A stretch of DNA of 64,000 bases. Origin: an uncultured Actinomycetes bacterium (lineage in GTDB: Bacteria > Actinomycetota > Thermoleophilia > Gaiellales > JAICJC01). This document shows, piece by piece, positions 1-27,408 of this stretch. Positions within the stretch are counted from its first letter, which is position 1, and every line of letters begins with the position of its first letter. Location of the stretch: NCBI GenBank assembly GCA_963701125.1, contig OY969568.1:3571108-3635107 (forward strand), read 5' to 3'. A model generated the notes under the pieces. The model ran no database searches. It was given only the letters and a program-made list of their open reading frames with translations, and had not been told where the DNA came from. The position numbers and the translations under genes are program-made.

Positions 1-166
1 CACCACGTAGCACGGTCGCCTTGTGGGCTGGCTCGTCTGGCGCGGGTTGCTCGGTTCGGCCGTTTGCCCGCGGTTTGCCCGCCGGAGTTGATCTCAGGTG
101 ATCGAGCGTGGCACAATCCCGGGCAACCGGGCAGAATCCGAGGCTCGGTGGCGTCGTATCGAACGT

Positions 167-209
167 CTCATAACCCGAAGGTCGCAGGTTCGAATCCTGC
201 CCCCGCTAC
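167..209 (+). other. 3' fragment of an initiator-type tRNA-Met gene (anticodon loop to acceptor 3' strand); putative att site
   Basis: ctcataacccgaaggtcgcaggttcgaatcctgcccccgcta closely resembles the 3' half of bacterial tRNA-fMet: CAU anticodon loop, CCCGA stem strand, GGTTCGAATCC T-arm. The 5' side (aacgt instead of tcggg) cannot pair, and no matching acceptor 5' strand lies at tRNA distance. Confidence 0.7.
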
Positions 210-235
210 TCGATCAAATTGCTGCGCAGAACCGC

Positions 236-262
236 GAAACCGCCGCATTTGCAGGCGGTTTC
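236..262 (+). terminator. Hairpin (9-bp stem gaaaccgcc/ggcggtttc, 9-nt loop) downstream of the tRNA fragment; weak terminator candidate
   Basis: Perfect inverted repeat read directly. Only a short T run (ttt) follows it. Confidence 0.35.
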
Positions 263-564
263 GCTGCGAACAGGGGCGTAGATCTGCGAACGGCTGCGAA
301 CGCCGTTTGCAGGGGTTTTTGCGCCGTGCGTCCTACGGCTGGGTCGCGGACTCTTCCGGTTGGGGTCGCAGCTGCATTGCACGACGCCGAATGCAATGGA
401 ATCCGGCGCCCGGCGGCGACGCGTTGTGGGGGCGCCTGACGGCCTTTTCGGCGGCGAGGTGCACCGGTGCATTCGACCGTAGCGCGGCGACATGTGCCTG
501 CACGGAGCGCCCTGTCAGGCGTTCTCCGGCTGCATTTGTCCGGACGCTCGCTACAACGGGGTGT

Positions 565-765
565 ATGCACACCATCATCGCGTTTCCGGCCCGCGGCGAC
601 TTCGAGCCCTGGGTGTCTAAGCGGGTGCTGGCACGGCACCTCGGCTTCTCCACCCGCTGGGTCGAGCTGCGACATCGCGAAGGGCTGCCCTCGCAGCTGG
701 TCGGCGGGCGCCGCCGCTACCGCATCTCCGAAGTTGAGGCGTGGCTTCGCGAGGCCGGCCGATGA
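565..765 (+). CDS. Excisionase/MerR-like helix-turn-helix DNA-binding protein (Xis-like)
   Basis: The C-terminal 66 aa of ORF 64..765 (MHTIIAF...WVSKRVLARHLGFSTRWVELRHREGLPSQLVGGRRRYRISEVEAWLREAGR) looks like an excisionase-family HTH. It overlaps the start of the integrase. The upstream part of that ORF is R/C-rich and looks non-coding. Confidence 0.6.
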   Translation: MHTIIAFPARGDFEPWVSKRVLARHLGFSTRWVELRHREGLPSQLVGGRRRYRISEVEAWLREAGR

Positions 766-1841
766 TTATCGAGAGAAACGGCCGCTTCGGCGTCTTGGTG
801 TACGACCCGCGCGTCAAGCACAAGGTCTGGGTCGGCACCTATGACACGCGGGAGGAGGCCGAGATGCGCGAGGAACTGGCGAAGGCGGCCCCGCACATCC
901 CCGGCTACGGCGAGGACACCTGCGAGTCGTTCGCACGGCGCTGGCCCGTCGACTTTCCCCGCAACGCACGCGCCACCCAGAACACCTACCGCTATGCGCT
1001 GAAGCGGTTCATCGAGCGGTTCGGCCCGCTTCGGCTGATCGAGCTTGACCGGCCCACCTGCTACCAGTGGGCGCTGACACAGCCCTACGGCACCGCAGTC
1101 GTCTGCCGAAACATGCTGAATGACGCCATCAACGCCGGCCTCTACCGCGGCCCCAACCCGTTCGCCGGCCTTCGCCGGCCGAAGTCCAAGGGGCGCCGCG
1201 ACATCGACGTGATGACCCACACCGACCTCGACGACCTGGTCGCGTGTGCCGTGCACTGCCACGGCGAGTACGGCGAGTCGGTGTTCGGGCCGCTGTTGAT
1301 CTTCCAGGCGTTCGTGACCACCCGCCCTGCCGAGCTCTATTTCATCGAGCGCACAGACGTCCGCGGCGACGAGGTGTACGTCCTCGACTCCGACGACGGC
1401 AGCGGCGACCCGAAGTTGCCCAAGAACTCCAACAAGCGCAAGGTCGTCTTACCGCCGCCAGCCGCCGAGGCGATCGCCCGCGTCCCTGCCCGCATCGGCG
1501 TGCCGTGGCTGTTCTACACGAAGACGGGAAAGCAGTTCAACAAGAGCAACCTTCGCTACTACTGGGATCCCGTGCAGAAGATGTTCGGCCGCCCAGACCT
1601 TGACTTCTACGAGCTGCGCCACTTCGGCGGCGCCTACATGACCAACGAGCTCGACTTGCCGCCGGAGGTGACGGCGATCCAGATGGGCCATCGAGACCAT
1701 GGCCGGCTGGTGCGGGAACTCTACGGGCACAAGTCAGAGAACCTGGCCCGCGAGGAGCTGAAGGACGCCTACCGCCGCCGCTACCACCGGCCCCGCCAGG
1801 CCCGCCGCGAGCCCCCGTTTCCGCCGGAGCGGTCGGCGTGA
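741..1841 (+). CDS. int: Tyrosine recombinase / phage-type integrase
   Basis: The N-terminus has an AP2-like arm-binding segment (GRFGVLVYDPRVKHKVWVGTYDTREEAE). The C-terminus carries YELRHFGG, MGHRDHG and LYGH (R, HxxR, Y catalytic pattern). An alternative ATG lies at 762. Confidence 0.9.
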   Translation: MASRGRPMIIERNGRFGVLVYDPRVKHKVWVGTYDTREEAEMREELAKAAPHIPGYGEDTCESFARRWPVDFPRNARATQNTYRYALKRFIERFGPLRLIELDRPTCYQWALTQPYGTAVVCRNMLNDAINAGLYRGPNPFAGLRRPKSKGRRDIDVMTHTDLDDLVACAVHCHGEYGESVFGPLLIFQAFVTTRPAELYFIERTDVRGDEVYVLDSDDGSGDPKLPKNSNKRKVVLPPPAAEAIARVPARIGVPWLFYTKTGKQFNKSNLRYYWDPVQKMFGRPDLDFYELRHFGGAYMTNELDLPPEVTAIQMGHRDHGRLVRELYGHKSENLAREELKDAYRRRYHRPRQARREPPFPPERSA

Positions 1842-2651
1842 TCCACCGCCGCGCGGCCGGCTATGGGGTGGCGGTGTATGACCCGACCACCAAGCGCATG
1901 CGCTGGGTCGGTACCTATCCGAGCGAGGCGGCGGCCAAACGCGCCGAGGCCGAGGCGGCTGCGCAGGTCGCCGGTGCCGCCACCGGCTATCCGACCCGCT
2001 GGCTGGCGGAACGTCCGCGGCCAGCCGCGCGCACCCGCCGCATGTATACGCGGGCCGTCCGCCTGTTCATCGAACGCTTCGGACGGACCGCTGGACGCGG
2101 TCGAGCCGGTTGATGTGTGGGCCTGGGCGGCGAGCCAACAGCGGGCATTGGCGGTCGCCGTGCAGACGATGTTCTCCGACGCCATCCGCGACGGAGTACA
2201 CCCGGGGCCCAACCCGCTTCGCCGCTTCGCCGGGAGCCGCGGCGGCGGCCGCCGTCCCGGCCAGCTCTCAGAAGACGAGGTCTACCGCCTGGCGGAATGC
2301 GCGGTCGACGCATGGGGCAGCTACGGGCTCGAGGTGCTCGCACCGGCCATCCTTACCACCGCCTATGCCCACCTCACGCGCGCCGAGCTATTTGACCTCA
2401 GACCAGGCGACCTTGACGGCGAGATCCTGCGGGTGCGCCGGGGCGGCCACGTGGATGAGCATCGACTGCCGCCAGAACTGGCCGCCGAGCTGGCCACGCG
2501 CACCCAACGCGGAGCCGAGTGGATGTTCGAGACGATCCGCGGGCGCAAGCTCACCGAAGGCACCCATTACCGCTACTGGAGCGCGATCCGCGTCGCCTAC
2601 GGCCGTCCTGACATGCACTTCCACGAGGTGAGGCTCGATCACGAGCTCTAG
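1838..2651 (+). pseudogene. Second integrase paralogue, frameshifted and 3'-truncated
   Basis: The N-terminus (YGVAVYDPTTKRMRWVGTYPSEAAAKRAE...FIERFG) parallels int. The frame breaks near 2085-2095 and continues in ORF 1863..2651. The sequence ends at DMHFHEVRLDHEL, before the HxxR and Tyr motifs. Confidence 0.8.
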
Positions 2652-2687
2652 CGTGGCGTCTCTCGGCCCGGAACAAGCTCACGGCGA

Positions 2688-3248
2688 TTGGCCTGGAGTA
2701 AAGAAAAGCCGCATGATGGGGATCGTATGAGGGTGGAGCTTCTTGACGACTGTTCGGGCGGTGCCCCTCTCGTGGGAGCGACGCGCGACGCCATCGAGGC
2801 CATCTATCGCCGCTCGTACCCGGACTTCCTTCGCGTCGCGACCGCGATCACCGCGGACGAAGCGGAGGCAGCCGACGCGGTACAGGACGCATTCGCTAGC
2901 GCGCTGCGATCGAGGCGTGGGTACCGCGGTAGCGGATCGCTGGACGCGTGGCTTTGGCGCGTGGTCGTCAACGCTGCGCGCAAGCGCCGCGCAGCCAGGC
3001 CGAATGTGTCGGATGCGTCCGCCGGCGAGCCGGCCGGCGGTTCCGATGACCCTGGTGATGAATCAGTCCGTGCCCTGGTCGCGGCGCTCCCCGAGCGACA
3101 GCGCTTGGTGCTGTTCCTGCGGTACTACGCCGACCTCGACTACCGCGCCATCGGCCGCGTCCTCGGTATCCGGTCCGGAACGGTCGGCGCCACGTTGAGC
3201 GCCGCCCATCAGGCGCTTCGCGCCCACCTGGAGGACAACGATGAGTGA
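2688..3248 (+). CDS. ECF-type RNA polymerase sigma factor (sigma-70 family)
   Basis: Region 2-like segment (YRRSYPDFLRVA...DAVQDAF) and region 4 HTH (LPERQRLVLFLRYYADLDYRAIGRVLGIRSGTVGATLSAAHQALR). The start is uncertain, with an ATG at 2727. Confidence 0.85.
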   Translation: MAWSKEKPHDGDRMRVELLDDCSGGAPLVGATRDAIEAIYRRSYPDFLRVATAITADEAEAADAVQDAFASALRSRRGYRGSGSLDAWLWRVVVNAARKRRAARPNVSDASAGEPAGGSDDPGDESVRALVAALPERQRLVLFLRYYADLDYRAIGRVLGIRSGTVGATLSAAHQALRAHLEDNDE

Positions 3249-4230
3249 GTTCGACCCGATCGTCAGCGGCATTCTGGACAGGTATGTGGAGCGCCGAGAC
3301 GCCGCGACGGGCGATTGGGCCAACGTGCTTCAGCGTGCGCACGCCTCGTCGTCGCGATCACGGTTGCTGACACGACGCCGCGCCGTCGTCGCGGCGATCG
3401 CCATCATGGCGCTGACCGCCTCCGCCGCCGAGGCCGGCGTGCTGCAGCGGGCCGCCCGTGCCTTCACAGACCTCCTCTCGCCTGCCTCCCCCAAAGCCAC
3501 GCAGGTGATCGCGTCCGCCGGCCGCCGGTTCAGTCTGGAACTGCAGACGATGGGGCGCGAGTTGCCCCACAAGGTGACGGGGTCGGCGCCAGTTCTTCGC
3601 CTCGGCCCGGCCCGCCAGGTTTCGACGCTTCCCACCCCGTTGGGCCGCGTGGCTTGGGACGCCGCCGTCGATCGGAACGGACGGGGCTACTGTCAGGTGG
3701 CAGTCCGCCACAACCGCAGCCTCGGCGGTGACTGCCAAGTCACGGACGAGCGCGGGTTCGCGCTCAGCGTCGCGACCTCCGGCGACACCTCCAGACTCGT
3801 GATCATTACCGGTCTGGTTCCGACGTCGGCTGCGAAGGTCGTCATCGCACGGCCGTCCCACCCATCCGCACAGGCACGACGGATTGGCCGCTTCTTCTTC
3901 GCGACGGTGCCCGAAGGATCTCCCCTGACAGTCACGGTCACGGCTGACGATGGGCATGTCTTGCGCAATGCCGCGTTCACCGACCCGGTCTGCACCAATG
4001 GCGTCGACCCGAGAGGGCTCCGCCTCCTGGCTGGCCTCGGGTTCACCTACTGCGGGCAAGGGGGCGTGATCGGTCGCTTCCCAGCAAACCCGAATTCGCC
4101 CCCGTGTGCGCGGCAAGCGGATGCGGCACCCCGATCATCCGAAACAACGAACAACCGATGCCCGCCGCCGCGCCGTCGACCGCGAAGGCCCTGCTACGGC
4201 AACTGCGGGAGAACCTGGGCACGGCCCTGA
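3241..4230 (+). CDS. Hypothetical single-pass membrane protein, possible anti-sigma factor
   Basis: The start overlaps the sigma factor stop. There is one TM segment (AVVAAIAIMALTASAA). The last ~40 aa are R/P-rich, so the real end may lie near 4100 or shift frame into the next ORF. Confidence 0.45.
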   Translation: MSEFDPIVSGILDRYVERRDAATGDWANVLQRAHASSSRSRLLTRRRAVVAAIAIMALTASAAEAGVLQRAARAFTDLLSPASPKATQVIASAGRRFSLELQTMGRELPHKVTGSAPVLRLGPARQVSTLPTPLGRVAWDAAVDRNGRGYCQVAVRHNRSLGGDCQVTDERGFALSVATSGDTSRLVIITGLVPTSAAKVVIARPSHPSAQARRIGRFFFATVPEGSPLTVTVTADDGHVLRNAAFTDPVCTNGVDPRGLRLLAGLGFTYCGQGGVIGRFPANPNSPPCARQADAAPRSSETTNNRCPPPRRRPRRPCYGNCGRTWARP

Positions 4231-4823
4231 TCGAGGACGCCCGCCTTGGCGCGCCCCCCGACGGTTACGGCAAGGGCGGCCACTGGCTCTACGTTCGCAT
4301 CGCCGCCGCCCACGGCGTCGAGGGCGCGCTCGCCGACTTCTACGCCCTCCTGCTGGCCGGCGCCTACGGCAGGGAAGCGCCACTCGGCCATCTGCCGCCG
4401 CTGGGTGGGCTCACCTACTACGACGACGCCCGCACTCCAGGGTGTGGACGGTCTGCCGACGATCCGACCTGCTCCGGCGTGTCGTGGCGCGCCCATCCCC
4501 AGATCGGCGCCGGCGGCCGTACAGACGCCGCCACGGTTGAGTCAGAAATCCGACTCGCACTCGCTCGACTGGGACTGGTTCCCGTCTCGATCAAGCTCGT
4601 CAGACCGCTCGATAGCCTTGCTGCCATCGTGGTCGCGCGCACAGATCGTCCGGCTGGACTCAACCTTGCGAGGCTCGCGGACCAAGTCTTCGGCTCCAAC
4701 CCCGGCCTCGAGGGCACATACCTCGAGATACTCGACCATGACGGTCATCCCCTGGCAGCCCAGGCCGCGGAAGACTCGCTCGGAATCGGGATTGGGTGGG
4801 CCGCGCACAAACCGCGCGGGTAG
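4104..4823 (+). CDS. Hypothetical protein
   Basis: Balanced, protein-like composition over 239 aa. An internal ATG at 4158 is a plausible start. No family recognised. Confidence 0.4.
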   Translation: MCAASGCGTPIIRNNEQPMPAAAPSTAKALLRQLRENLGTALIEDARLGAPPDGYGKGGHWLYVRIAAAHGVEGALADFYALLLAGAYGREAPLGHLPPLGGLTYYDDARTPGCGRSADDPTCSGVSWRAHPQIGAGGRTDAATVESEIRLALARLGLVPVSIKLVRPLDSLAAIVVARTDRPAGLNLARLADQVFGSNPGLEGTYLEILDHDGHPLAAQAAEDSLGIGIGWAAHKPRG

Positions 4824-4989
4824 TCGCGGGTGCCCTGGACGAGCTTGTCAACGCCGCCTGGCAACCAGAGTGCCATGCGGCCTCCAGACGGCTGCCAGAG
4901 GCGGCAAGGCGGCAGCCTTGCGCTGTTACCGCAGCGGTCTGAACGGCTGGCCGCCTTGGCCGCATCTCGCGGCTTCTTTCGCGGAACTC

Positions 4990-5790
4990 CTAGGCGGAGG
5001 AGAGCTTCGCGTCCAGGTAGGTGAGCAGCGACCGGCCGACGTTGATCACGAGCCGGGCTTCCTCGTCTCCGAGCAGCTCCTCGTTTGGGTGCGCGACGCT
5101 GGCGCGGTTCCGAAGGGGAAGCAGGGCGTCGAGGATCGCCCCGGATGCGTTCAGCACCTTCGCGATGTCATCCGCCCGGGGCCCGAGATCACGCAGGCCC
5201 GAGTGGTCGCGCCGGAGCTTCCGCAAGAGCGCGGGCATCGGGTCGGTCTCCTCGTAGGCGACCCCCGCGGTGCGGCACTGGAGCACCAGGTAGCCGTGGA
5301 GGGCGGTGTGCACCCGGTCGACTGCGCTCGTCGGGCCGGATGTCTGAATCAGCGTCTCGGCATCCCGCAGCGCCCTGTCGACGACGTCGCTCGTCATCTG
5401 CGGGACGGGAGGCAGGACGCCCGGCTGCCGCTCGAGGCGAGCGGCGACCTCGAGCAGCGAGTCACGGGCCGCAGCCGTCCGCGTCGCCGGTGCGTCCGCA
5501 GCCTCGATCGGGAACCGCTCGATCACGCCGCGGATGATCTTCGCCTGGTCGCCGGGATGGCGGCTCGAAAGGATCTGGATGAAGCGCTCCCGTGTGGTGC
5601 CCTCGTACTCGTACGGGTTGATGTCGAGGTCGCAGTATTCCGGGTAGAAGTCCGCGTGTGTGCGGTAGGAGAAGTCTCCAAGGTAGCCGCCGCTCACGCC
5701 GACGTAGCGGTTCACAAGCCGCGTGATCTCCATGGCCGTCATGCCGCCAGGCGACGGAGCGGACGGCGGGTGTCTGGCTGGGATACTCAC
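4990..5790 (-). CDS. HEPN-type Abi_C / AbiJ-like protein (putative abortive-infection RNase)
   Basis: The C-terminal LPLRNRASVAHPNE fits the HEPN Rx4-6H motif in an Abi_C-like context. The N-terminus (GYLGDFSYRTHADFYPEYCDLDINPYEYEGTTRERF) resembles AbiJ N-terminal domains from memory. Alternative ATG starts lie at 5742 and 5733. Confidence 0.6.
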   Translation of the reverse strand: MSIPARHPPSAPSPGGMTAMEITRLVNRYVGVSGGYLGDFSYRTHADFYPEYCDLDINPYEYEGTTRERFIQILSSRHPGDQAKIIRGVIERFPIEAADAPATRTAAARDSLLEVAARLERQPGVLPPVPQMTSDVVDRALRDAETLIQTSGPTSAVDRVHTALHGYLVLQCRTAGVAYEETDPMPALLRKLRRDHSGLRDLGPRADDIAKVLNASGAILDALLPLRNRASVAHPNEELLGDEEARLVINVGRSLLTYLDAKLSSA

Positions 5791-5864
5791 CCGAGAGATG
5801 GTAGAGAGCCGGTCGGACCCGATCCGCGGAGCGGCCGGTGCGGTCAGCGAAACGCTCCCAAAGA

Positions 5865-5901
5865 AAAGTGTAGTCAGGTAGTGTTTACTTCGCTACACTT
5901 T
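5865..5901. promoter_or_regulatory. Perfect 9-bp inverted repeat (aaagtgtag N19 ctacacttt) in an AT-rich divergent promoter region
   Basis: Read directly. It lies between the HEPN gene (minus) and the ATPase gene (plus), in one of the few low-GC patches of the window. Confidence 0.5.
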
Positions 5902-5906
5902 GTCTA

Positions 5907-7325
5907 ATGACGAGCAAAGGCTTCATCGGTCGGGACGCTGAGATGGCCGAGCTGGGGGCGCACCTCGAGTTCGTGCAGGAGCGTGGCGCCGGACGGATGC
6001 TCGCGATGCGCGGCCGCCGCCAGATCGGAAAGTCACGGCTGGTTGAGGAGTTCATCCGCCGAAGCGGCGCAGACGCGATCTTCTACACCGCCTCCAAGCA
6101 GTCCAGCGAGGACGAGCTGCGCATCTTCGGCGAGCAGGTCGCGCTCCTGGACACCCCTGGCGGGCAGATCGCCCAGGCCGGCCCGGTCGGTTCATGGGAG
6201 GCCGCGCTGACGATCGCCGCGACCGGCGCGTCGGCGGAGTCGCCGATCATCATCGTCATCGATGAGTTGCCGTTCCTGATCGATAGCGAGTCCGCGATCG
6301 AGGGGATCATCCAGAAGCAGTGGGACCGAGGGCTCGAGCGGCAGCCGGTGCTCTTGCTGCTGGTCGGCTCCGACCTCTCCATGATGGAAGCCCTCAACGA
6401 GTACGACCGCCCGCTGTACGGCCGATTCACCGAGATGGTCGTCCGGCCGTTCTCGCCCAACGCCATCAGTTCGATGCTCCGCCTCGATGCGGCAGACGCG
6501 CTGGACGCCTACCTCGTGATCGGTGGATTCCCGCGCCTGGCCGAGATCTGGCATCGCGGCGACGATGTATGGAAGTTCCTGCGCCGCGAGCTCCAGAATC
6601 CCCAGTCGCCGCTGATCGTCCTGGCGGAACGCTCCCTCAACGCCGAGTTCCCCGCCGACATGAAGGCCCGCGACGTGATCGAGGCGATCGGCGCCGGCGA
6701 GCGATCGTTCAGCACCATCCTCAGCCGGGCCGGCGTCTCCAACAAGACGCTCGAGACGACCCTGGAGACCCTGATCGACAAGCGGGTGATCCGAAAGGCG
6801 CTGCCCTACTCGGCGACTCCGCGGCCGAAGCTGTCGCGCTACCACATCGCAGATCCATACCTGCGGTTCTGGCTACGGTTCGTCCGTCCAAACCTGCCCG
6901 CCATCGAACGTGGCCGTGGCGATCTCGTCTACAAGGACATCCGCGCCCAGTGGCAGACCTACGCCGGCCGGGCGATCGAGCCGACCGTGCGGGGCGCCGT
7001 CGAGAACCTGTTGCCCGATCCTCGGTTCGCCGACGCGCAGTTCGTCGGCGGCTTCTGGAATCGTGACAACAGCATCGAGGTCGACCTGGTCGGCGGCCGA
7101 AACGCCGACACGTCCGACACCATCGACTTCGTGGGATCGATCAAATGGCGTGACAACGCGGCCTTCAACCGCCACGACCTGAGCCGCCTCATCGAACATC
7201 GAGCGGCCGTGCCGGGAGCGACCTCGGACGCGCGACTTGTGGGCGTTTCACGCAGCGGATTTACCGCCGAGGGCCTCGACGTCCAACTCGATCCACAGAC
7301 GATCCTCGACGCCTTCCCAGCCTGA
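5907..7325 (+). CDS. AAA-type ATPase (archaeal-ATPase/ORC-like) with a DUF234-like, PD-(D/E)xK-like C-terminal region
   Basis: Walker A GRRQIGKS and Walker B IIIVIDELPF. The C-terminus has IEVDLVGG...FVGSIKWRD, an E-x-D...S-x-K pattern typical of restriction-endonuclease-fold tails on these ATPases. Confidence 0.75.
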   Translation: MTSKGFIGRDAEMAELGAHLEFVQERGAGRMLAMRGRRQIGKSRLVEEFIRRSGADAIFYTASKQSSEDELRIFGEQVALLDTPGGQIAQAGPVGSWEAALTIAATGASAESPIIIVIDELPFLIDSESAIEGIIQKQWDRGLERQPVLLLLVGSDLSMMEALNEYDRPLYGRFTEMVVRPFSPNAISSMLRLDAADALDAYLVIGGFPRLAEIWHRGDDVWKFLRRELQNPQSPLIVLAERSLNAEFPADMKARDVIEAIGAGERSFSTILSRAGVSNKTLETTLETLIDKRVIRKALPYSATPRPKLSRYHIADPYLRFWLRFVRPNLPAIERGRGDLVYKDIRAQWQTYAGRAIEPTVRGAVENLLPDPRFADAQFVGGFWNRDNSIEVDLVGGRNADTSDTIDFVGSIKWRDNAAFNRHDLSRLIEHRAAVPGATSDARLVGVSRSGFTAEGLDVQLDPQTILDAFPA

Positions 7326-7491
7326 CGACGGCGGACGGTACGAGGTGTCCGAGGCCCGACCCCCACGTCGCCGCAGCCAAACCGTGCGGCGCACGGCGAG
7401 CTCTGATATACGTCTACCGAGAACGCCGCAGTTCGCCGGGTCGCACGGTAGGTAGCAGGAGCAGCGCGCTTTCCGCGCTGGGAACCATGTT

Positions 7492-7520
7492 TCGCAGGGA
7501 GTTGCACTAATCCCCGCTAC
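7492..7520 (+). repeat. Degenerate copy of the tRNA 3' end (TCGCAGG-N13-CCCCGCTAC), putative distal att site
   Basis: It shares both flanking blocks with 182-209, but the T-loop region has diverged. Confidence 0.4.
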
Positions 7521-7527
7521 CTCGGAG

Positions 7528-7552
7528 AAGGCCCGCCTGTGCGGGCCTTTTT
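7528..7552 (+). terminator. Rho-independent terminator
   Basis: aaggcccgc ctgt gcgggcctt followed by ttt: a 9-bp GC-rich stem, 4-nt loop and T run. Confidence 0.75.
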
Positions 7553-7574
7553 CGTTCGACGCCTGGGGGAGACC

Positions 7575-8141
7575 GTGACAACCCTTGAGAACCGGCCGAA
7601 CACTGCACTACTCGTGGTCGACGTCCAGAACGCCGCCGTCGAGCGGGCGCACGAGCGCGACGCCGTCGTCGCCAACGTCGGCAGCCTTGTCGAGCGGGCG
7701 CGGCGCGAGGGGGTGCCGGTGGTCTGGGTGCAGCACTCCGACGCGGAGCTTGCAAGGGGCAGCGACGGCTGGCGGATCGTCTCCGAGCTGACTCCGGGCG
7801 CCGCCGAGCCGCTGGTCGAGAAGAGCTACGGCGACTCCTTCGAGGACACCACGCTCGAGACCGTCCTTCGGAGTCTCGGTGTCGGGCGGCTGGTCGTCGT
7901 CGGCGCGCAGACCGATTGGTGTGTGCGCTCGACGCTGCATGGCGCCCTCGCAAGGGGCTACGACACCATGCTCGTCGGCGACGCCCACACGACGGAGGAC
8001 CAGACCGAGTGGGGCGCGCCGCCGCCGGAGGCCGTCATCGCGCACACGAACCTGTACTGGGCATACCAGACGGCGCCAGGGCGAACCGCTGGGACCGTCA
8101 GCTGCAATGACGTCGACTTCGGCGACGCCCGCGCCTCTTAA
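7575..8141 (+). CDS. Isochorismatase-family cysteine hydrolase
   Basis: ALLVVDVQNA...VVWVQH...LVVVGAQTDWCVRST pattern. GTG at 7575 is preceded by gggggag. The longer ORF start at 7539 sits inside the terminator hairpin. Confidence 0.8.
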   Translation: MTTLENRPNTALLVVDVQNAAVERAHERDAVVANVGSLVERARREGVPVVWVQHSDAELARGSDGWRIVSELTPGAAEPLVEKSYGDSFEDTTLETVLRSLGVGRLVVVGAQTDWCVRSTLHGALARGYDTMLVGDAHTTEDQTEWGAPPPEAVIAHTNLYWAYQTAPGRTAGTVSCNDVDFGDARAS

Positions 8142-8746
8142 GCGAGATTGCGCACTGCGAGCCAGGGTGGGTCGCAGTCGAAGTCGTAGTAGCGAGTGCG
8201 TTCGATGACGAGGCTGTCGGCGCCCAGGAACGGCCCGGGCACCACGCCGGTGTGCAGCCGGACCGAGTGGTAGTGACGCGGGGTGAGCTCGACAGCGCGC
8301 CGATGCAGGGCATGACCATCGACGCGCTTTGGCGCATCCGGTGCCGCACAGAGGATCAGGTTGCCGTATCCACCATCGGCGAGCGCGACGTCGTAGTAGC
8401 AGAGCACACCCGGGATCGTCTCGAGCGAGGCGACGATACCCGCTTCGAGCTCGTCGATCGGCACATGGTCGATGTCGGTGCGTGCCCGGCCGAAGAACCC
8501 GACCGCCGTCATCCCAGCCGCGGCCCGGAGCGCCGCCAGGTCGGGCGCGCGGATCCAGTGGCGATGCCCGTCCGAATCCGGCTCGCGGATGAGCAAGCCT
8601 GTCGTGTCCCCAGAACAGCCGGCCACCCGCACCCGCAGCCGCTCCAGCATCGTCTGCATGATCCCGGCGTCGCGAACCGTGTGGGCCGGTGCCGCGAACG
8701 GCCGGCCGGCACACTCCTCGTTCGCGGACAGCTCGACAGCGCCCAT
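8138..8746 (-). CDS. Hypothetical protein
   Basis: The C-terminal ~200 aa of ORF 8138..9082 have normal composition. The N-terminal extension is R/G/C-rich and would overlap the divergent lipoprotein gene. ATG at 8746. Confidence 0.5.
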   Translation of the reverse strand: MGAVELSANEECAGRPFAAPAHTVRDAGIMQTMLERLRVRVAGCSGDTTGLLIREPDSDGHRHWIRAPDLAALRAAAGMTAVGFFGRARTDIDHVPIDELEAGIVASLETIPGVLCYYDVALADGGYGNLILCAAPDAPKRVDGHALHRRAVELTPRHYHSVRLHTGVVPGPFLGADSLVIERTRYYDFDCDPPWLAVRNLA

Positions 8747-8914
8747 CGCCACCGCCGATCCTACAACCGCTCGCAGCGAGGTCGGATCCGGTCGCTGCGC
8801 GCGGGTACGTACGGCCGCCCGCGTCAGCCGGATTGTCGCGCCGCTCACAATCCCCGCCCCGTTCGGCGTCCGTAGCTCCCCTCGAACGACTGATCCCCAA
8901 GAGGAGCAACGACA

Positions 8915-9445
8915 ATGAACTTGCATATCGGAACACGAGCACGAGCAGCCCTGGCCGTCGCGTCGATCGCCCTGGCGGCGGCGTGCGGGTCGGCCTCCGC
9001 CGGCACCGGGACGCACCAGGCGTCCGGTGTCGTCGGGACGGCCCAGAACGCCACCCTCGCGAGCAGGGTGCTCGTGAATCATCAGGGGATGACCCTCTAC
9101 ACGCTCTCGGCCGAGCGCAACGGCCGCTTCATCTGCACGGCGACTGCCAAGATTGCCGGAAGCTCGCAGCGGTGCCTCCAGGTGTGGAAGCCTCTGCTGG
9201 TGAAGGGCGCGGCGCCCACGGGCACGATCGCCGGCCTCGGCGCCGTCATGCGGCCCGACGACGGCGACACGCAGCTCACCTACAAGGGGCTGCCGCTGTA
9301 CACGTTCACCGGCGATCGCGCGGCGGGCGACGCCGCCGGCAACGGCTTCAAGGACGTCGGCACGTGGCAGGCCGCCACCGTCGGCGCGGCAGCCTCTGCT
9401 TCGGCCTCGACGACGCAGTCAAGCGGCGGCGGGTACGGCTACTGA
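8915..9445 (+). CDS. Secreted lipoprotein with Yx(FWY)xxD repeat (COG4315-like)
   Basis: Signal peptide with lipobox LAAAC, motifs LYTLSAE and LYTFTGD, and an agaggag RBS upstream. Confidence 0.75.
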   Translation: MNLHIGTRARAALAVASIALAAACGSASAGTGTHQASGVVGTAQNATLASRVLVNHQGMTLYTLSAERNGRFICTATAKIAGSSQRCLQVWKPLLVKGAAPTGTIAGLGAVMRPDDGDTQLTYKGLPLYTFTGDRAAGDAAGNGFKDVGTWQAATVGAAASASASTTQSSGGGYGY

Positions 9446-9508
9446 GGCACTCCGCTCACGCCCAGGGGAGCTCGCCCGCTCCCCTGGGCGCCCGGGCGGC
9501 GTGGTCGG

Positions 9509-10651
9509 TCACCTGTAGCGGCGGATCTTGAGGGTGGCGCGGCGCTGCGTGAGGGCGAGTGGGCCGGTATCGAACCCGGCGGTGAGGGGCGTCGTGTTTG
9601 GGGTGATCAGCCCTGTGTACACACGTGTGGTGAAGCGCAGAGTCCGTCCCTGATCAATGCATGAGTGGTGGGTGATGGCCGGTGCCCGGGTGGAGGCGAA
9701 GGTGGCAGACCCGGTCATGAACGGGTTGCCGGCGGCGAAGACCTCGGCGGTGGCTCCGCGGGTCGAGTGGGCCGGCCGCGGCAGGGTCGAGACCGCGGTT
9801 ATCGCCGCCATCGAGTGAGCCTCGGAGGCGACGCTGGGACTCGCGGGGTTCGTACCGGTGAACACAGATTCGCTCACGGCGCGCCGGCCGCGAATCTTCT
9901 CGAACGACCAGGACTGGGTCTGGCTGCCTGCCTCGAGGCTTTCGCGGCCGGGACAGCCGCGATTTTCCGCCGAGGGGGGTGGTGCCGCCGAGCCCTTACA
10001 GCCAGGGTCGTAGATGAGACGGGCGCGCACCGGCCCGCCGGTGAGCGTGCCGAAGAAGGGTGACGTGGGGGTGGCGATGCTGAAGGCCGCGTACGCCAGG
10101 GTGCCCGAGACGTGGCGCCGGTTGCCGTGGCCGCCGTTCGACAGGCTGCAGGCGGTCGTCGTTTGCCGGCCGGAAGCGGTGAAGGTGGTCGTCAGCATGC
10201 TCGGCGCGATCGAGGCGGCCATGTCGAGCGTGGCGGTCGCAAGCGTCCTTCGGGCGATGGTGAAGGTCGCGCCCGACTGGGGGTCGAACACGTAGTCGTG
10301 GGACTGAAACGCGATCGGCGATCCACCCGGCGGCGCCGAGCGGGCGAGATCCACAACCACCGACGGCGGGAACTGGGGGATTCCGGGAAATGCGAAGGCC
10401 AGGAGCCGCATCTCGTACCGCACGCCGGAGATCAGGACTTCCCGCGGCCCGGCGACGAGCGTCACCGCCGCCGCGAGTCGGGGCGGCGCAACGCGGGCGA
10501 GCCGCATGCTCCGCCACCGCACGAGCGCGCCTGAGCGAGGCGCTGCGGCGACGGAGGTGCCGGCCGCCAGGCAGAGCACAAAGACCAGCGCCGCGACACT
10601 GCCGACCGCGACCCGCCTGCACGCACCCTGTCGACCCCAGGCATCCCGCAT
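9509..10651 (-). CDS. Secreted hypothetical protein
   Basis: ATG at 10651 is preceded by aaggggag, and a signal peptide (VAALVFVLCLAAGTSVAAA) follows. The upstream part of the long ORF looks non-coding. Confidence 0.6.
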   Translation of the reverse strand: MRDAWGRQGACRRVAVGSVAALVFVLCLAAGTSVAAAPRSGALVRWRSMRLARVAPPRLAAAVTLVAGPREVLISGVRYEMRLLAFAFPGIPQFPPSVVVDLARSAPPGGSPIAFQSHDYVFDPQSGATFTIARRTLATATLDMAASIAPSMLTTTFTASGRQTTTACSLSNGGHGNRRHVSGTLAYAAFSIATPTSPFFGTLTGGPVRARLIYDPGCKGSAAPPPSAENRGCPGRESLEAGSQTQSWSFEKIRGRRAVSESVFTGTNPASPSVASEAHSMAAITAVSTLPRPAHSTRGATAEVFAAGNPFMTGSATFASTRAPAITHHSCIDQGRTLRFTTRVYTGLITPNTTPLTAGFDTGPLALTQRRATLKIRRYR

Positions 10652-10723
10652 GCTCGCTCCCCTTGGAGGTTGTGCGGATCCGCACTCTAACCGCGGACAG
10701 GTGCCGAGGCCAAGGCGGTTATC

Positions 10724-11113
10724 GTGCAGACCATGAACGATGACGACATCCGTGCCGCGATCGCCGCTCACTGGGCTGCGTCCGACGCGCAGGACTTCGA
10801 GGTCGAGCACCAGATCTACGCCGAGGACGCCGTGCTCGAGTATCCCCAGTCCGGCGAGCGCATCCGCACGCGGAAGAACATCCAGACCACGCGGACGCTC
10901 CAACCCAACGACAAGCGATTCTCGGTCCGGCGGACGGTCGGCTCGGGCCGCCTCTGGATCACCGAGCTCATCCTGAGCTACGACGGAAGGCCGTACCCCA
11001 CCGTCAGCATCATGGAGCTCGGACCCGACGGCAAGGTGTGCCGCGAGACCCAGTACTTCTGCGACCCGTTCCCTGCCAGCGAGTGGCGCTCCCAGTGGGT
11101 CGAGCAGATGTGA
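10724..11113 (+). CDS. SnoaL/NTF2-like fold protein
   Basis: ~129 aa with the typical pattern IRAAIAAHWAASDAQDF...YAEDAVLEYPQSGERI. Confidence 0.6.
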   Translation: MQTMNDDDIRAAIAAHWAASDAQDFEVEHQIYAEDAVLEYPQSGERIRTRKNIQTTRTLQPNDKRFSVRRTVGSGRLWITELILSYDGRPYPTVSIMELGPDGKVCRETQYFCDPFPASEWRSQWVEQM

Positions 11114-11120
11114 GCTCGGC

Positions 11121-11441
11121 TCACTCGAGCCATTCCGTCGTGAACGTCGGGCTGGCGTGGATGCAGACGAGCTTCGACGGCCCCGGCCCCGTGTTTCGGA
11201 ACTTGTGCGGGACGCCGGGCGGCACGACGACGATGTCTCCCTCCGATGCCTCGAGCGTCTCGTCGCCGGCCGTGAACGTCAGCGTCCCCGCCACGACGAC
11301 CCACGTCTCGTCGTAGGGGTGGCGGTGCAGCCGGGGGCCGCCGCCCGGCTCGCTCTGGTCGAGGATGATGCAGACCGTGGCGCCGTGGTCGGCGCCGACC
11401 ATGTTTCCATCGGCAAGCGTGCCTGCAGGGATACGCGGCAT
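11121..11441 (-). CDS. Cupin-domain protein
   Basis: GPRLHRHPYDETWVVVAGTLTF...GDIVVVPPGVPHKFRN, with ggagg upstream of the ATG at 11441. Confidence 0.8.
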   Translation of the reverse strand: MPRIPAGTLADGNMVGADHGATVCIILDQSEPGGGPRLHRHPYDETWVVVAGTLTFTAGDETLEASEGDIVVVPPGVPHKFRNTGPGPSKLVCIHASPTFTTEWLE

Positions 11442-11517
11442 TGGTGACCTCCGTCTCGATTCAATCGGCTCCCGTGTCCTTCCGGGCAGCAGATACCCGC
11501 ATGGTGGTCCAACACGG

Positions 11518-12390
11518 ATGGTGACGACCCGGGTCGCCGTCGTCGGGGTCGGTGCGATCGGAGCGACGATCGCGGCCGCCGTCCAGGCATCCGGGGGCGC
11601 TGAGCTCGTCCTCTGCGGCCGCACGGCGGTCCGAGAGGTCATCGTCCACTCGCCGTGGAGCGGGTCGAGCATCGCGGTCGGCCCCGTCCTCGCCACGCCG
11701 GCGGATGTGAGCGAGGCACGCTGGGTGCTGCTCGCGGTGAAGGCACACCAGACGCCGGACGCGATCGGCTGGCTGCGCCGGCTCACCGGCTCCGGCACCG
11801 TCGTCGCGGTGCTCCAGAACGGCGTCGAGCACCGCGAACGCGTCGCGCCGCTCGTCCCCGGCGCCGAGATCCTTCCCACGGTCATCTGGTTCGGAGCGCA
11901 CACAACGGCACCGGGCCGGGTGACGGTGAGCTCCGCGCCGAGGCTCACGGTGCCGGATTCGGCGCACGGCCGCGCGTTCGCCGACCTCCTCGGCGGCGGC
12001 GCGGAGGTCGCCCTGACCGGCGACTTCCTGACCGAGTCGTGGCGCAAGCTCTGCCGCAATGCCGTTGCGGCGCTGATGGCGCTCACGCATCGACCGGCCG
12101 AGATCTTCCGCGACGACGGCGTGCACACGCTCGCGCTCAGGCTTGCCGACGAGTGCGTCCGCGTCGGACGTGCCGAGGGCGCCGCGCTGCCGGATTCGCT
12201 CGCGCGCGAGATCGCAGACGGCTTTGCCCGCCAACCGCCCGGGAGCGGATCGTCGATCCTTGCCGACTCGATCGCCGGCAGGCCGCTCGAGTGGGACGCC
12301 CGCAACGGGGTCATCCGCCGTCTGGGAGCCCGCCACGGCATCCCGACACCCGTCAGCGACACCCTTGTGCCACTGCTCGGAGCGCGGTAG
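11518..12390 (+). CDS. panE: 2-dehydropantoate 2-reductase (ketopantoate reductase family)
   Basis: VAVVGVGAIGATIAAA Rossmann motif, plus WRKLCRNAV and ILADSIAGRPLEWDARNGVI (ApbA_C-like). Confidence 0.75.
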   Translation: MVTTRVAVVGVGAIGATIAAAVQASGGAELVLCGRTAVREVIVHSPWSGSSIAVGPVLATPADVSEARWVLLAVKAHQTPDAIGWLRRLTGSGTVVAVLQNGVEHRERVAPLVPGAEILPTVIWFGAHTTAPGRVTVSSAPRLTVPDSAHGRAFADLLGGGAEVALTGDFLTESWRKLCRNAVAALMALTHRPAEIFRDDGVHTLALRLADECVRVGRAEGAALPDSLAREIADGFARQPPGSGSSILADSIAGRPLEWDARNGVIRRLGARHGIPTPVSDTLVPLLGAR

Positions 12391-13528
12391 GGCTCAAACC
12401 GCGCACCGCCGCCGCGGCCAGGTGCGGCGCCATCCGGTCGACCACGTGGTCCCATCCGCCGGCCACGAGGATCTCGGCATGCGCGGTTCGGCCCATCGAC
12501 CGCGCGCGATCGGGCGATGAGAGCAGCTCGGTGAGCGCGCCGGCGAGCGCGTGCGCGTCGCGGGGCGGGACGAGCAGGCCCGTGACGCCGTCCGTGATGA
12601 TCTCGGGCATCGCGAGCTGGTCGGTGCCGATGCACGGCAGGCCGTGCGCCATCGCCTCCTGGAACGCGTGCCCCCACGCCTCGAAGTGCGAGGGCATGAC
12701 GAACACCGAGGCGCCGGCGTAGATTCGCGCGAGCTCGGTGCGGTCGGAGACGTAGCCGTGCCAGCGAACGCCGTCCGGGCTGTCGCGGCGGGCGTGCGGT
12801 CCGACGATGCGAAGCTCGGCGCCGGGGACGCGCCGGCGTACCTCGGGCCACGCCGTGAGCAGCGTTTCGCCGCCCTTGATCGCAAACTTGTCCCCGACGA
12901 ACAGCGCCACCGGGCGGTCGTTGCGCTTCGTCGAGCTGTCCTGGGGGGCGAGGTTCGTCCCTCCGCCCACCGCGACGACGCGCGCGGGGTCGCAGCCGTA
13001 CTCGTCGATCACCGCCCTGCGGACGAACTCCGACATGGTGAAGACGACGTCGGCGTCGGTGCAGACGGCGCGCTCGAGCGCCGTCCAGCGCGCGCCCCGG
13101 CGCCGTCCGAGCGGCGCCCAGGCCGGATAGAACCGCTCGGTCAGCGGGTAGATGTTGTCGGTGTAGACGGTGTAGGGACGCGCGTACGGTGCTGACCCCG
13201 GCGCGAACAGCGTCTGCAGCTGCAGGAGCACGTCGTAGCGGCCCTCCCAGCCCGCCAGCTCGGCGCCGGCCAGCTCGCTGCGCCGGCGGAAGGCCCACGG
13301 GCTCAGGCTGTGGCGCGCCGACCACGCCGGCCTGCGCGGATGGATCGCGCCGAGCGACCGCAGGTAGTACTCGCGGTCCGGGATCTGCGGCCGCACGAAC
13401 CCGACCAGGTCGTACCGGCGGTCGAGCGCCGCGAACAGGCCGGCGTAGCGGGTGAACGACGTGCGAAACGCGGAGAGGTTCTGGTTCGAGCAGGCCAGCA
13501 CCCGCAGGGTCTGCGGAGCGTCCGTCAT
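12353..13528 (-). CDS. Glycosyltransferase, GT4 (group 1) family
   Basis: C-terminal SHFEAWGHAFQEAMAHGLPCIGTD...GVTGLLVPP (E-x7-E region). ATG at 13528. Confidence 0.8.
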   Translation of the reverse strand: MTDAPQTLRVLACSNQNLSAFRTSFTRYAGLFAALDRRYDLVGFVRPQIPDREYYLRSLGAIHPRRPAWSARHSLSPWAFRRRSELAGAELAGWEGRYDVLLQLQTLFAPGSAPYARPYTVYTDNIYPLTERFYPAWAPLGRRRGARWTALERAVCTDADVVFTMSEFVRRAVIDEYGCDPARVVAVGGGTNLAPQDSSTKRNDRPVALFVGDKFAIKGGETLLTAWPEVRRRVPGAELRIVGPHARRDSPDGVRWHGYVSDRTELARIYAGASVFVMPSHFEAWGHAFQEAMAHGLPCIGTDQLAMPEIITDGVTGLLVPPRDAHALAGALTELLSSPDRARSMGRTAHAEILVAGGWDHVVDRMAPHLAAAAVRGLSPTALRAVAQGCR

Positions 13529-22561: not shown

Positions 22562-22662
22562 GAGTCGACGGTAGTTTCTACGCGACGCCGCTCACGCGTT
22601 TTGGGGGGGCTGGTACCTGCCGGCCGCACCCCCGACCGCGCCGTGCGACACTGTAAGCCGCG

Positions 22663-25212: not shown

Positions 25213-25229
25213 GCGACCGGCCCGCGAGG

Positions 25230-27379: not shown

Positions 27380-27380
27380 A

Positions 27381-27408
27381 TGATAAGCCTAGACTGATAA
27401 GTCTAGAC
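27381..27408. promoter_or_regulatory. Tandem 14-nt repeat (tgataagcctagac / tgataagtctagac) containing the palindrome ctagac-N6-gtctag; likely MarR operator
   Basis: Read directly. It starts 2 nt upstream of the marR start codon, in an AT-rich divergent intergenic region. Confidence 0.55.

What the first reader, a model, noticed from the sequence alone, without database searches (positions are those of the whole stretch)
4990..7325. Divergent HEPN (Abi_C/AbiJ-like) and AAA ATPase with PD-(D/E)xK-like tail sharing a palindromic promoter: possible two-gene defence module on the island
The minus-strand protein ends with LPLRNRASVAHPNE, an Rx4-6H HEPN motif in the context seen in abortive-infection C-terminal domains. 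The plus-strand protein has Walker A GRRQIGKS and Walker B VIDE, followed by a tail with IEVDLVGG...GSIKW, a restriction-endonuclease-fold-like pattern. The genes are 117 nt apart in an AT-rich spacer. That spacer carries a perfect 9-bp inverted repeat (5865-5873 / 5893-5901). An RNase effector paired with an NTPase-nuclease inside an integrase island is the architecture typical of anti-phage systems. I cannot match this particular pairing to a named system.
Basis: partly seen in the sequence, partly recalled or inferred. Interest (0 to 1): 0.65.

Follow-up and report, generated by a model that had tools for sequence, protein, structure and literature searches.

The report
Two unrelated defence-type genes, side by side
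The two genes and the palindrome are real, but they are not a two-gene system: a stand-alone HEPN "abortive infection" gene happens to lie next to a stand-alone ATPase-nuclease gene, and the palindrome is that ATPase gene's own control site.

Summary
The sequence observations hold. ORF 4990-5733(-) matches Pfam Abi_C/HEPN and carries an invariant Rx6H motif. ORF 5907-7325(+) is ATPase_2 + winged helix + DUF234 (PD-(D/E)xK) and matches PADLOC candidate PDC-S27 (E 7.5e-25). The 9-bp inverted repeat is real (p about 0.01).

The two-gene-module reading fails.
- None of 80 loci around Abi_C homologues holds the ATPase, and none of 80 loci around ATPase homologues holds Abi_C. HMM searches agree.
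- Neither gene has any conserved neighbour.
- ATPase genes 85% and 81% identical, and an Abi_C gene 86% identical, sit in unrelated contexts.
- In the closest relatives (97% ATPase identity) the Abi_C gene is truncated before its HEPN domain, yet the ATPase stays intact (pN/pS 0.13).
- DNA homology breakpoints put the seam between the two units at about 5836-5864.

The palindrome travels with the ATPase gene. The element AAGTGTA..AGTGTTTAC..CTACACTT, ending 6-7 nt before the start codon, is present in 16 of 80 ATPase loci and no Abi_C locus. More distant ATPase clades carry different repeats at the same place, and these covary with the protein's winged-helix recognition helix. This suggests autoregulation.

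The Abi_C protein's N-terminal domain, which has no Pfam match, also occurs fused to TIR, kinase and PIN domains.

Both genes are new members of known kinds, so interest is modest.

The parts
4990..5733 (-). Abi_C-family ('abortive infection family protein') gene, 247 aa. Alternative starts are 5742 and GTG 5790.
   Evidence: Pfam Abi_C, 5.7e-11. There are 2222 homologues, typically 58-86% identical over the full length. GC3 is 0.88.
5431..5733 (-). N-terminal all-alpha domain (residues 1-101) with no Pfam match. It is a modular domain also found fused to TIR, kinase, PIN and DUF4062 domains.
   Evidence: Nothing beyond Abi_C matched in Pfam. AF2 predicts five helices, with pLDDT about 90 over most of the domain. 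The domain has 385 representative proteins. Among the best 150: Abi_C 47, TIR_2 16, Pkinase 2, EAD7 2, PIN_2 1, DUF4062 1.
4990..5397 (-). C-terminal HEPN (Abi_C) domain, residues about 113-247, plus the stop codon.
   Evidence: The Pfam match covers residues 201-259 of the 266-aa ORF. The best high-probability Foldseek hits are HEPN domains: 1o3u (prob 0.94) and 2hsb (0.87). Their E-values are above 1.
5089..5112 (-). Rx6H catalytic motif RNRASVAH (R208...H215).
   Evidence: R208, N209, S212, A214 and H215 are invariant in 27 homologues.
5836..5864 (.). Seam between the two independently inherited units.
   Evidence: Homology to L169 (86% Abi_C) ends at 5835. Homology to L167 (85% ATPase) starts at 5848 and to L168 (81%) at 5865.
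5865..5901 (+). Repeat element of the ATPase gene. Half-sites are AAGTGTA (5866-5872), AGTGTTTAC (5880-5888) and the inverted CTACACTT (5893-5900). TACACT (5894-5899) is a possible -10 box, 7 nt before the ATG.
   Evidence: The element is conserved in 15 aligned upstream regions whose flanks are unrelated. It is present in 16/80 ATPase loci and 0/80 Abi_C loci, and occurs once in the window. The inverted repeat is statistically unusual.
5907..7325 (+). PDC-S27-type gene, 472 aa: AAA+ ATPase, lid, winged helix, then DUF234/PD-(D/E)xK.
   Evidence: Pfam ATPase_2 and DUF234. PADLOC PDLC04984 at 7.5e-25 and PDLC04985 at 5.6e-23. AF2 domain layout.
6012..6035 (+). Walker A, GRRQIGKS.
   Evidence: G36, G41, K42 and S43 are each conserved in 64/64 distinct homologues.
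6255..6266 (+). Walker B, VIDE.
   Evidence: D119 is conserved in 64/64 and E120 in 63/64.
6666..6848 (+). Predicted winged helix-turn-helix, residues 254-314.
   Evidence: AF2 predicts three helices (254-262, 268-275, 279-291) and two strands (295-298, 311-314). There is a faint NCBIfam cas_HTH hit at 247-297. Top Foldseek hits are ORC subunits and Orc1/Cdc6. The helix-3 sequence covaries with the upstream repeats.
6870..7310 (+). DUF234 / PD-(D/E)xK-like domain, with E358 (6978-6980), D393 (7083-7085) and S411-I-K413 (7137-7145).
   Evidence: Pfam DUF234 covers residues 322-416. AF2 shows an alpha-beta-beta-beta-alpha-beta order. E358 is conserved in 64/64, D393 in 64/64 and K413 in 63/64.

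Best explanation
Two self-contained, horizontally mobile, single-gene candidate defence genes have been juxtaposed by chance in a lower-GC accessory region close to an integrase gene.

Gene 1 (4990-5733, minus strand) is a one-protein sensor-effector. It has an N-terminal all-alpha module that is swapped among HEPN, TIR, kinase and PIN effectors in other proteins. This is joined to a C-terminal HEPN (Abi_C) domain with an intact Rx6H site. I infer that it is a latent RNase that the N-domain switches on during infection, causing growth arrest or abortive infection.

Gene 2 (5907-7325, plus strand) is a PDC-S27-type protein. It has an Orc1/Cdc6-like AAA+ ATPase with lid and winged helix, fused to a PD-(D/E)xK (DUF234) nuclease-like domain.

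The palindromic element at 5865-5901 belongs to gene 2 only. It is a set of two direct half-sites and one inverted half-site that ends 6-7 nt before the start codon. I infer that it overlaps the -10 box of a leaderless promoter. I also infer that the protein's own winged helix binds it, so the gene represses itself.

What is shown: the domain memberships, the lack of co-occurrence, the independent inheritance with a seam at about 5836-5864, the conservation of the element with the ATPase gene, and the clade-wise covariation of the element with the recognition helix. What is inferred: RNase and nuclease activity, a defence role, autoregulation, and a leaderless start.
For: - Domains.
- No co-occurrence: 0/80 loci around Abi_C homologues hold the ATPase. 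0/80 loci around ATPase homologues hold Abi_C; 56 of these have at least 1 kb of upstream sequence.
- HMM searches of 1605 and 1457 neighbouring ORFs found nothing at E <= 1. Positive controls worked.
- No conserved neighbour of either gene. Abi_C homologues sit in type I R-M operons in 7-8 loci and next to TrwC relaxases in 4. The ATPase has nothing conserved nearby.
- Close relatives: ATPase genes at 85% and 81% identity sit in ordinary chromosomal contexts. Abi_C genes at 76% and 86% identity have no ATPase nearby.
- In L161/L162 (ATPase 97% identical) the Abi_C gene is cut after residue 87. The ATPase ORF is intact there, with 39 synonymous against 15 nonsynonymous codon differences (pN/pS 0.13).
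- Homology breakpoints lie at 5835 and at 5848/5865.
- The repeat element is conserved with the ATPase gene.
- Inverted repeats are enriched upstream across the whole family. The mean best perfect repeat is 8.3 nt, against 5.9 in a control region and 5.0 in shuffles (n=54; Mann-Whitney p 7e-9 and 8.5e-17).
- Different clades carry different repeats that track the winged-helix helix 3.
- N-domain modularity.
- Literature: PDC-S27 is described as a single-gene ATPase + PD-(D/E)xK candidate without experimental validation (PMC12988326; bioRxiv 10.1101/2024.01.29.577857).
Against: - No experiment shows defence, RNase or nuclease activity for either family. PDC-S27 is an untested candidate.
- Several close ATPase homologues sit among ordinary metabolic genes. 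This fits a mobile solo gene but gives no defence-island support.
- The canonical acidic residue of the (D/E)xK triad is Ser in this family (S411), so the nuclease may be atypical or inactive.
- The ATPase model has only moderate confidence (mean pLDDT 68.6), and Foldseek TM-scores are low (0.2-0.3).
- Binding of the repeats by the protein's own winged helix is inferred from covariation, which is partly confounded by shared ancestry.
- The sigma-70 consensus scan found no promoter in the spacer.
- A local regulatory link is not excluded. The left arm of the element could influence transcription towards Abi_C in this genome.
Confidence: 0.8

Rival explanations
1. One reading: the HEPN protein and the ATPase-nuclease form one cooperating two-gene anti-phage system. 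The NTPase would sense infection and the RNase would act as effector, with both genes co-regulated from a shared palindromic promoter.
For: The genes are adjacent and divergent. Both families have a defence flavour. Pairings of NTPases with HEPN effectors are common in known systems (general knowledge). The same adjacency existed in the ancestor of L161/L162.
Against: There was no co-occurrence in 160 loci sampled from both sides. The partner is absent at 76-86% identity. The HEPN domain is deleted in L161/L162 while the ATPase remains under purifying selection. The palindrome is inherited with the ATPase only, and the spacer is a composite with a seam. The ATPase has no copy of the Abi_C N-domain that could mediate a homotypic interaction.
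Confidence: 0.05
2. The ATPase is not an immune protein. It is an Orc1/Cdc6-like, sequence-specific DNA-binding initiator or maintenance factor of a small mobile unit. On this reading the upstream repeats are iteron- or origin-like binding sites rather than an operator.
For: The best structural matches are ORC subunits and archaeal Orc1/Cdc6 bound to origin DNA (E 1e-6 to 1e-4, prob 1.0). Direct and inverted repeats lie in an AT-rich patch immediately upstream of the gene, as at archaeal origins next to orc1/cdc6 (general knowledge). The unit 'repeats + gene' moves as a block. The family occurs on plasmids, 148 records.
Against: The gene is solitary in chromosomal contexts with no other replication or transfer genes conserved nearby. 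The repeats end 6-7 nt from the start codon, which is the position expected of a promoter or operator. The conserved PD-(D/E)xK residues have no role in an initiator. No viral contig carries the gene.
Confidence: 0.08
3. The palindrome is only a generic promoter or a chance inverted repeat and is not a protein-specific binding site.
For: TACACT fits the TANNNT -10 pattern at the distance expected for a leaderless start (read directly from the sequence). The inverted repeat alone has p of about 0.01.
Against: About 35 nt are conserved in 15 loci whose flanks are unrelated. Other clades have quite different repeats at the same position. Inverted repeats are enriched family-wide. A generic host promoter would not change its sequence with the clade of the downstream protein.
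Confidence: 0.07

Closest known systems
PADLOC candidate PDC-S27 (COG1672-type ATPase_2 + DUF234 proteins)
   Same: The protein gives full-length HMM matches: PDLC04985 covers residues 1-427 of a 484-position profile at 5.6e-23, and PDLC04984 scores 7.5e-25. The architecture is the same, an ATPase fused to a PD-(D/E)xK domain. It is likewise a single gene without a conserved partner.
   Different: Nothing essential differs. The family itself is an untested candidate. I found no mention, in the papers searched, of the clade-specific upstream repeat arrays or the winged-helix covariation seen here.
Pfam Abi_C (PF14355) proteins, named 'abortive infection family protein' by NCBI; lactococcal AbiJ is the named prototype of this HEPN class
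   Same: Both have a C-terminal HEPN domain with an Rx4-6H motif. Both are single-gene. Homologues are often embedded in type I R-M operons or carried on conjugative elements and plasmids.
   Different: The PADLOC AbiJ model gives only E 0.033, over 55 C-terminal residues. None of the Pfam AbiJ_NTD families matches the N-terminus. The N-domain is a different, unannotated module shared with TIR, kinase and PIN proteins.
Archaeal Orc1/Cdc6 and eukaryotic ORC subunits
   Same: They share an AAA+ core, lid and winged helix by fold. The gene is preceded by direct and inverted repeats in an AT-rich patch.
   Different: There is no sequence-level match to any solved structure. The protein has an extra PD-(D/E)xK domain. 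The repeats abut the start codon. It is a solitary gene in bacteria.
Self-regulated defence loci with palindromic operators, such as the wHTH-WYL regulators BrxR/CapW (from general knowledge, not tested here)
   Same: A helix-turn-helix protein would bind an inverted repeat in front of a defence gene and keep expression low.
   Different: Here the putative DNA-binding domain is part of the ATPase-nuclease itself, not a separate regulator gene.

Membership tests
Pfam Abi_C / HEPN superfamily | Profile match above the curated cut-off | tested here: met
   PF14355 scores 42.8 bits against a cut-off of 24, E 5.7e-11.
Pfam Abi_C / HEPN superfamily | Conserved Rx4-6H motif | tested here: met
   The motif is R208-NRASVA-H215. 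R208, N209 and H215 are invariant in 27 homologues.
Pfam Abi_C / HEPN superfamily | Helical-bundle HEPN fold | tested here: inconclusive
   The AF2 model is all-alpha with pLDDT 85.6. HEPN domains 1o3u and 2hsb are the high-probability hits (0.94, 0.87; TMt 0.68, 0.66), but their E-values are above 1.
Pfam Abi_C / HEPN superfamily | RNase activity or abortive-infection phenotype | not testable with these tools
   This needs biochemistry and phage assays.
AbiJ (lactococcal system, PADLOC model) | Full-length match to the AbiJ model, or presence of AbiJ N-terminal domains | tested here: not met
   PDLC02347 gives E 0.033 and 11.9 bits, on residues 205-259 only. No AbiJ_NTD family is found in Pfam at E <= 1.
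HEPN-MNT toxin-antitoxin pairs | Adjacent minimal nucleotidyltransferase partner | tested here: not met
   No such neighbour is in the window. No conserved neighbour appears in 80 loci.
PDC-S27 (PADLOC candidate) | Match to the PDC-S27 HMMs | tested here: met
   PDLC04984 at 7.5e-25 and PDLC04985 at 5.6e-23.
PDC-S27 (PADLOC candidate) | ATPase fused to a PD-(D/E)xK domain, as a single-gene unit | tested here: met
   ATPase_2 and DUF234 are both matched. No neighbour is conserved. The description is in PMC12988326.
PDC-S27 (PADLOC candidate) | Antiviral activity | not testable with these tools
   The candidate is unvalidated in the literature read.
PD-(D/E)xK phosphodiesterase superfamily | Membership of a family assigned to the superfamily | tested here: met
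   DUF234 scores 39.9 bits against a cut-off of 22.5. It is listed as family 76 in PMC3424549.
PD-(D/E)xK phosphodiesterase superfamily | Alpha-beta-beta-beta-alpha-beta core with catalytic D ... (D/E)xK | tested here: inconclusive
   The order of secondary-structure elements fits (pLDDT is 60-90 in this domain). E358, D393 and K413 are conserved in 63-64 of 64 homologues, but the (D/E) position is Ser411.
   The counts were 0/80 and 0/80. The partner is absent or truncated in close relatives.
Orc1/Cdc6 initiators | Sequence-level membership and association with a replication origin | tested here: not met
   Only fold similarity was found. No PDB sequence match exists at E <= 0.01. Origin function was not tested.

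The most novel reading that the evidence does not exclude
PDC-S27-type proteins are one of the most abundant untested defence candidates in archaea and bacteria. The novel reading is that they are Orc1/Cdc6-like, sequence-specific DNA-binding AAA+ nucleases. Each clade would recognise its own array of direct and inverted half-sites in front of its own gene, through a co-evolving winged helix. The array would serve as a self-operator that keeps a potentially toxic nuclease at a low level. It might also act as a docking site that holds the protein inactive until infection. Separately, the unannotated N-domain of the Abi_C protein would be a new, widely exchanged sensor module of single-protein HEPN, TIR, kinase and PIN immune effectors.
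Probability: 0.45. Interest if true: 0.5.

Novelty: new member of a known kind. Interest (0 to 1): 0.3.

Why it matters
For the scan, this case shows that a divergent gene pair with a palindrome between the genes is weak evidence for a system. Here the spacer is a composite of two separately inherited upstream regions.

For biology, two by-products can be tested directly:
- PDC-S27 is reported among the commonest defence candidates, with 3503 archaeal and 4562 bacterial instances in PMC12988326. It has no known mechanism. The predicted cognate DNA site for each clade gives an immediate handle for binding, regulation and structure studies.
- The N-domain shared by HEPN, TIR, kinase and PIN proteins is a candidate infection sensor with no Pfam match.

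Neither would overturn current views.

Tried and rejected
- Looking up the source contig to see beyond the window's left edge failed. Neither window protein is on record.
- Sequence searches of the PDB with both family profiles gave nothing usable.
- Foldseek found no match for the Abi_C N-domain. Whole-chain hits such as PDE10 are noise at E around 1.
- The sigma-70 consensus scan found no promoter. It flagged only a weak terminator-like hairpin inside the operator, which I regard as the inverted repeat itself.
- There were no Rfam families in 1-12000, no tRNA in the window and no att-like direct repeats. Island borders therefore remain unknown.
- PADLOC found no other defence-type protein among ten neighbours, so this is not a dense defence island.
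- Viral contigs: only two carry the HEPN half, and none carries the ATPase.
- The first literature search for 'DUF234' was swamped by DUF2345 and similar terms.
- I considered an effector-associated-domain (EAD) homotypic link between the two proteins. I rejected it because the ATPase starts directly with its AAA+ core and has no copy of the N-domain.
Full report
**1. Observation**

ORF 4990-5790(-) and ORF 5907-7325(+) are present. Both show the third-position GC excess of real genes in this roughly 70% GC genome: GC3 is 0.88 and 0.86. The long antisense ORF 4246-5907 has GC3 0.70 and is a shadow ORF.

The 9-bp inverted repeat sits at the stated coordinates. It extends to 16-nt arms with 13/16 complementary. 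A perfect repeat of this length arose in 1.25% of shuffles of the spacer.

There are three corrections:
- Homologues and the database gene call (P0001, 247 aa) place the start of the minus-strand gene at ATG 5733, not GTG 5790. The spacer is therefore about 173 nt.
- Only 5850-5906 is AT-rich, at 40% GC.
- An integrase is present at 741-1841 (PHROG_1, 5.6e-27), and GC is lower over 1-8000. No tRNA, att repeats or island borders were found.

**2. What the two proteins are**

The minus-strand protein matches Pfam Abi_C above threshold. It belongs to a tight full-length family, with 2222 hits that are typically 58-86% identical. R208-x6-H215 is invariant.

The family is spread across Actinomycetota, Chloroflexota, Cyanobacteria, Acidobacteriota, Proteobacteria, Planctomycetota, CPR bacteria and even DPANN archaea. 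That distribution points to horizontal transfer.

AlphaFold gives a confident all-helical model (pLDDT 85.6). Its C-terminal half resembles HEPN domains only weakly. The PADLOC AbiJ model barely touches the protein (E 0.033).

The plus-strand protein matches ATPase_2 and DUF234 and the PADLOC candidate PDC-S27 over nearly its full length. DUF234 is catalogued as a PD-(D/E)xK family (PMC3424549). PDC-S27 is described as a single-gene ATPase + PD-(D/E)xK candidate found by 'guilt by embedding', and it is not validated (PMC12988326; preprint 10.1101/2024.01.29.577857).

The AlphaFold model has moderate confidence (pLDDT 68.6). It shows four parts:
- an AAA+ core, residues 1-180;
- a lid, residues 184-247;
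- a winged helix, residues 254-314;
- an alpha-beta-beta-beta-alpha-beta domain, residues 338-468.

Its best structural matches are ORC subunits and archaeal Orc1/Cdc6 on origin DNA, followed by NLR/STAND proteins. Across 64 distinct homologues K42, D119, E358 and D393 are invariant, and K413 is conserved in 63/64. The usual acidic residue before the lysine is Ser411.

**3. Test of the two-gene hypothesis**

I fetched 80 genomic loci around Abi_C homologues and 80 metagenomic loci around ATPase homologues.

- tblastn found the ATPase in none of the first set.
- tblastn found Abi_C in none of the second set; 56 of those loci have at least 1 kb upstream.
- Family HMMs searched against all neighbouring ORFs also found nothing at E <= 1. 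Positive controls worked.
- Clustering of neighbours shows no conserved partner of any kind. Abi_C homologues sit inside type I R-M operons in 7-8 loci and next to TrwC relaxases in 4. The ATPase has no recurrent neighbour.

Close relatives decide the matter:
- ATPase genes 85% and 81% identical lie among ordinary genes, with no Abi_C.
- Abi_C genes 76% and 86% identical have no ATPase.
- The only contigs that share the adjacency (L161/L162, ATPase 97% identical) share DNA with the window from 5474 to 7523 only.
- In those contigs the Abi_C gene is cut after residue 87 and has lost its HEPN domain. The ATPase ORF is intact, with 39 synonymous against 15 nonsynonymous codon differences (pN/pS 0.13). 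The ATPase is therefore maintained without the supposed effector.

**4. The spacer is a composite**

Nucleotide homology to the 86% Abi_C contig runs from the gene up to window position 5835. Homology to the 85% and 81% ATPase contigs starts at 5848 and 5865. The seam between two separately inherited units therefore lies at about 5836-5864. The palindrome is entirely on the ATPase side.

**5. What the palindrome is**

Upstream regions of ATPase homologues 65-71% identical, in unrelated contexts, keep a roughly 35-nt element: AAGTGTArTC-N3-TAGTGTTTAC-N4-CTACACTT. A start codon follows 6-7 nt later, and the flanks are random.

The composite motif occurs in 16/80 ATPase loci, always just before the gene. 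It occurs in 0/80 Abi_C loci and once in the 64-kb window.

More distant ATPase clades have different repeats at the same place. Examples are:
- GTACCAAA..TTTGGT
- ACAACCAAA..TTTGGTTGT
- TACTAACATTGATGTTAGTA
- two or three copies of GGAGTTCGCT followed by GCGAACTT

Each repeat type goes with a distinct sequence of winged-helix helix 3. Perfect inverted repeats are longer in the 100 nt around the start than in a control region or in shuffles. The means are 8.3, 5.9 and 5.0 nt respectively (n=54; p 7e-9 and 8.5e-17).

The only gene that always travels with the element is the ATPase itself, and that protein has a predicted winged helix. The simplest reading is that the protein binds its own promoter, that is, autoregulation. 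TACACT lies 7 nt before the ATG with no room for a ribosome-binding site, which suggests a leaderless transcript. Both points are inferences.

**6. The Abi_C N-domain**

Residues 1-100 have no Pfam match. An exhaustive search found 385 representative proteins with this domain. Among the best 150, the accompanying domains were:

| Accompanying domain | Proteins |
|---|---|
| Abi_C | 47 |
| TIR_2 | 16 |
| CAP12/Pycsar-type TIR | 2 |
| Protein kinase | 2 |
| EAD7 | 2 |
| STALD | 2 |
| PIN_2 | 1 |
| DUF4062 | 1 |
| SEFIR | 1 |

A small, highly conserved module exchanged among immune-type effector domains fits a built-in sensor or regulatory domain. It also fits a protein that works on its own.

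**7. Mechanism and rivals**

The best-supported picture (confidence about 0.8) is two independent single-gene units juxtaposed near an integrase. One is a sensor-HEPN protein, presumed to be an RNase that causes abortive infection. The other is a self-regulated AAA+-winged-helix-PD-(D/E)xK protein, a PDC-S27 member presumed to act on DNA in an ATP-dependent way.

The rivals are:
- a cooperating pair (about 0.05);
- an Orc-like initiator with iteron-like repeats (about 0.08);
- a generic promoter or chance repeat (about 0.07).

A purely local regulatory influence of the element on Abi_C transcription in this genome cannot be excluded.

**8. Novelty and score**

Both genes are new members of known kinds, and the proposed system is not real. 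The operator and winged-helix covariation in the PDC-S27 family and the modular N-domain are modest, testable additions. I did not find them in the literature searched. Interest is 0.3.

Noticed in passing
L081-L160 (upstream of each ATPase homologue), e.g. L106 around 350-430, L132 around 5920-6000, L152 around 590-660: Every clade of the ATPase_2-DUF234 family has its own array of direct and inverted repeats immediately upstream of the gene. The repeat sequence tracks the sequence of the protein's winged-helix helix 3.
   Followed up: partly
window 5431-5733 (-); proteins P0261, P0296, P0257, P0319, P0370, P0355, P0388, P0361: The N-terminal roughly 100 aa of the Abi_C protein form a domain with no Pfam match. 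It also occurs fused to TIR/SEFIR, protein kinase, DUF4062, PIN and EAD7-containing proteins.
   Followed up: partly
L017, L029, L034, L051, L061 and others (about 6 kb around the Abi_C homologue): In 7-8 of 80 loci the Abi_C homologue is embedded in a type I restriction-modification operon (hsdM, hsdS, hsdR). In 4 loci it lies next to a TrwC relaxase.
   Followed up: yes
L161 4687-4980 and 7304-8563; L162: In the closest relatives the Abi_C gene is a 97-aa remnant of the N-domain only. An IS256-type transposase (Transposase_mut) lies just beyond the shared block.
   Followed up: yes
window 64-765, 741-1841, 1863-2651: An excisionase-like HTH protein is followed by a tyrosine integrase (PHROG_1, 5.6e-27). 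After that comes a second, weak integrase-like ORF (PHROG_1, 1.6e-4), possibly a degraded copy.
   Followed up: partly
window 2688-3248 and 3241-4230: An ECF-type sigma factor gene (Sigma70_r2 and r4_2) overlaps by 8 nt with a 329-aa ORF that has no family match. This is the layout of a sigma / anti-sigma pair.
   Followed up: no
window 7530-7552: A GC-rich hairpin (GGCCCGC-CTGT-GCGGGCC) followed by TTTTT lies about 200 nt after the ATPase stop, just past the end of homology to L161 (7523). L161 has a different hairpin at the same place. The hairpin overlaps the listed GTG start (7539) of the isochorismatase ORF, so that gene probably starts later. The terminator scan did not flag it.
   Followed up: no
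window 4246-5907 (+): A 553-aa ORF runs antisense to the whole Abi_C gene. It has flat codon-position GC (0.73/0.61/0.70) and is a shadow ORF typical of high-GC DNA.
   Followed up: yes
window 1-8000 versus 11000-30000: GC content is 0.65-0.70 in the left 8 kb and 0.71-0.75 further right. This is consistent with acquired DNA at the left end of the window.
   Followed up: no
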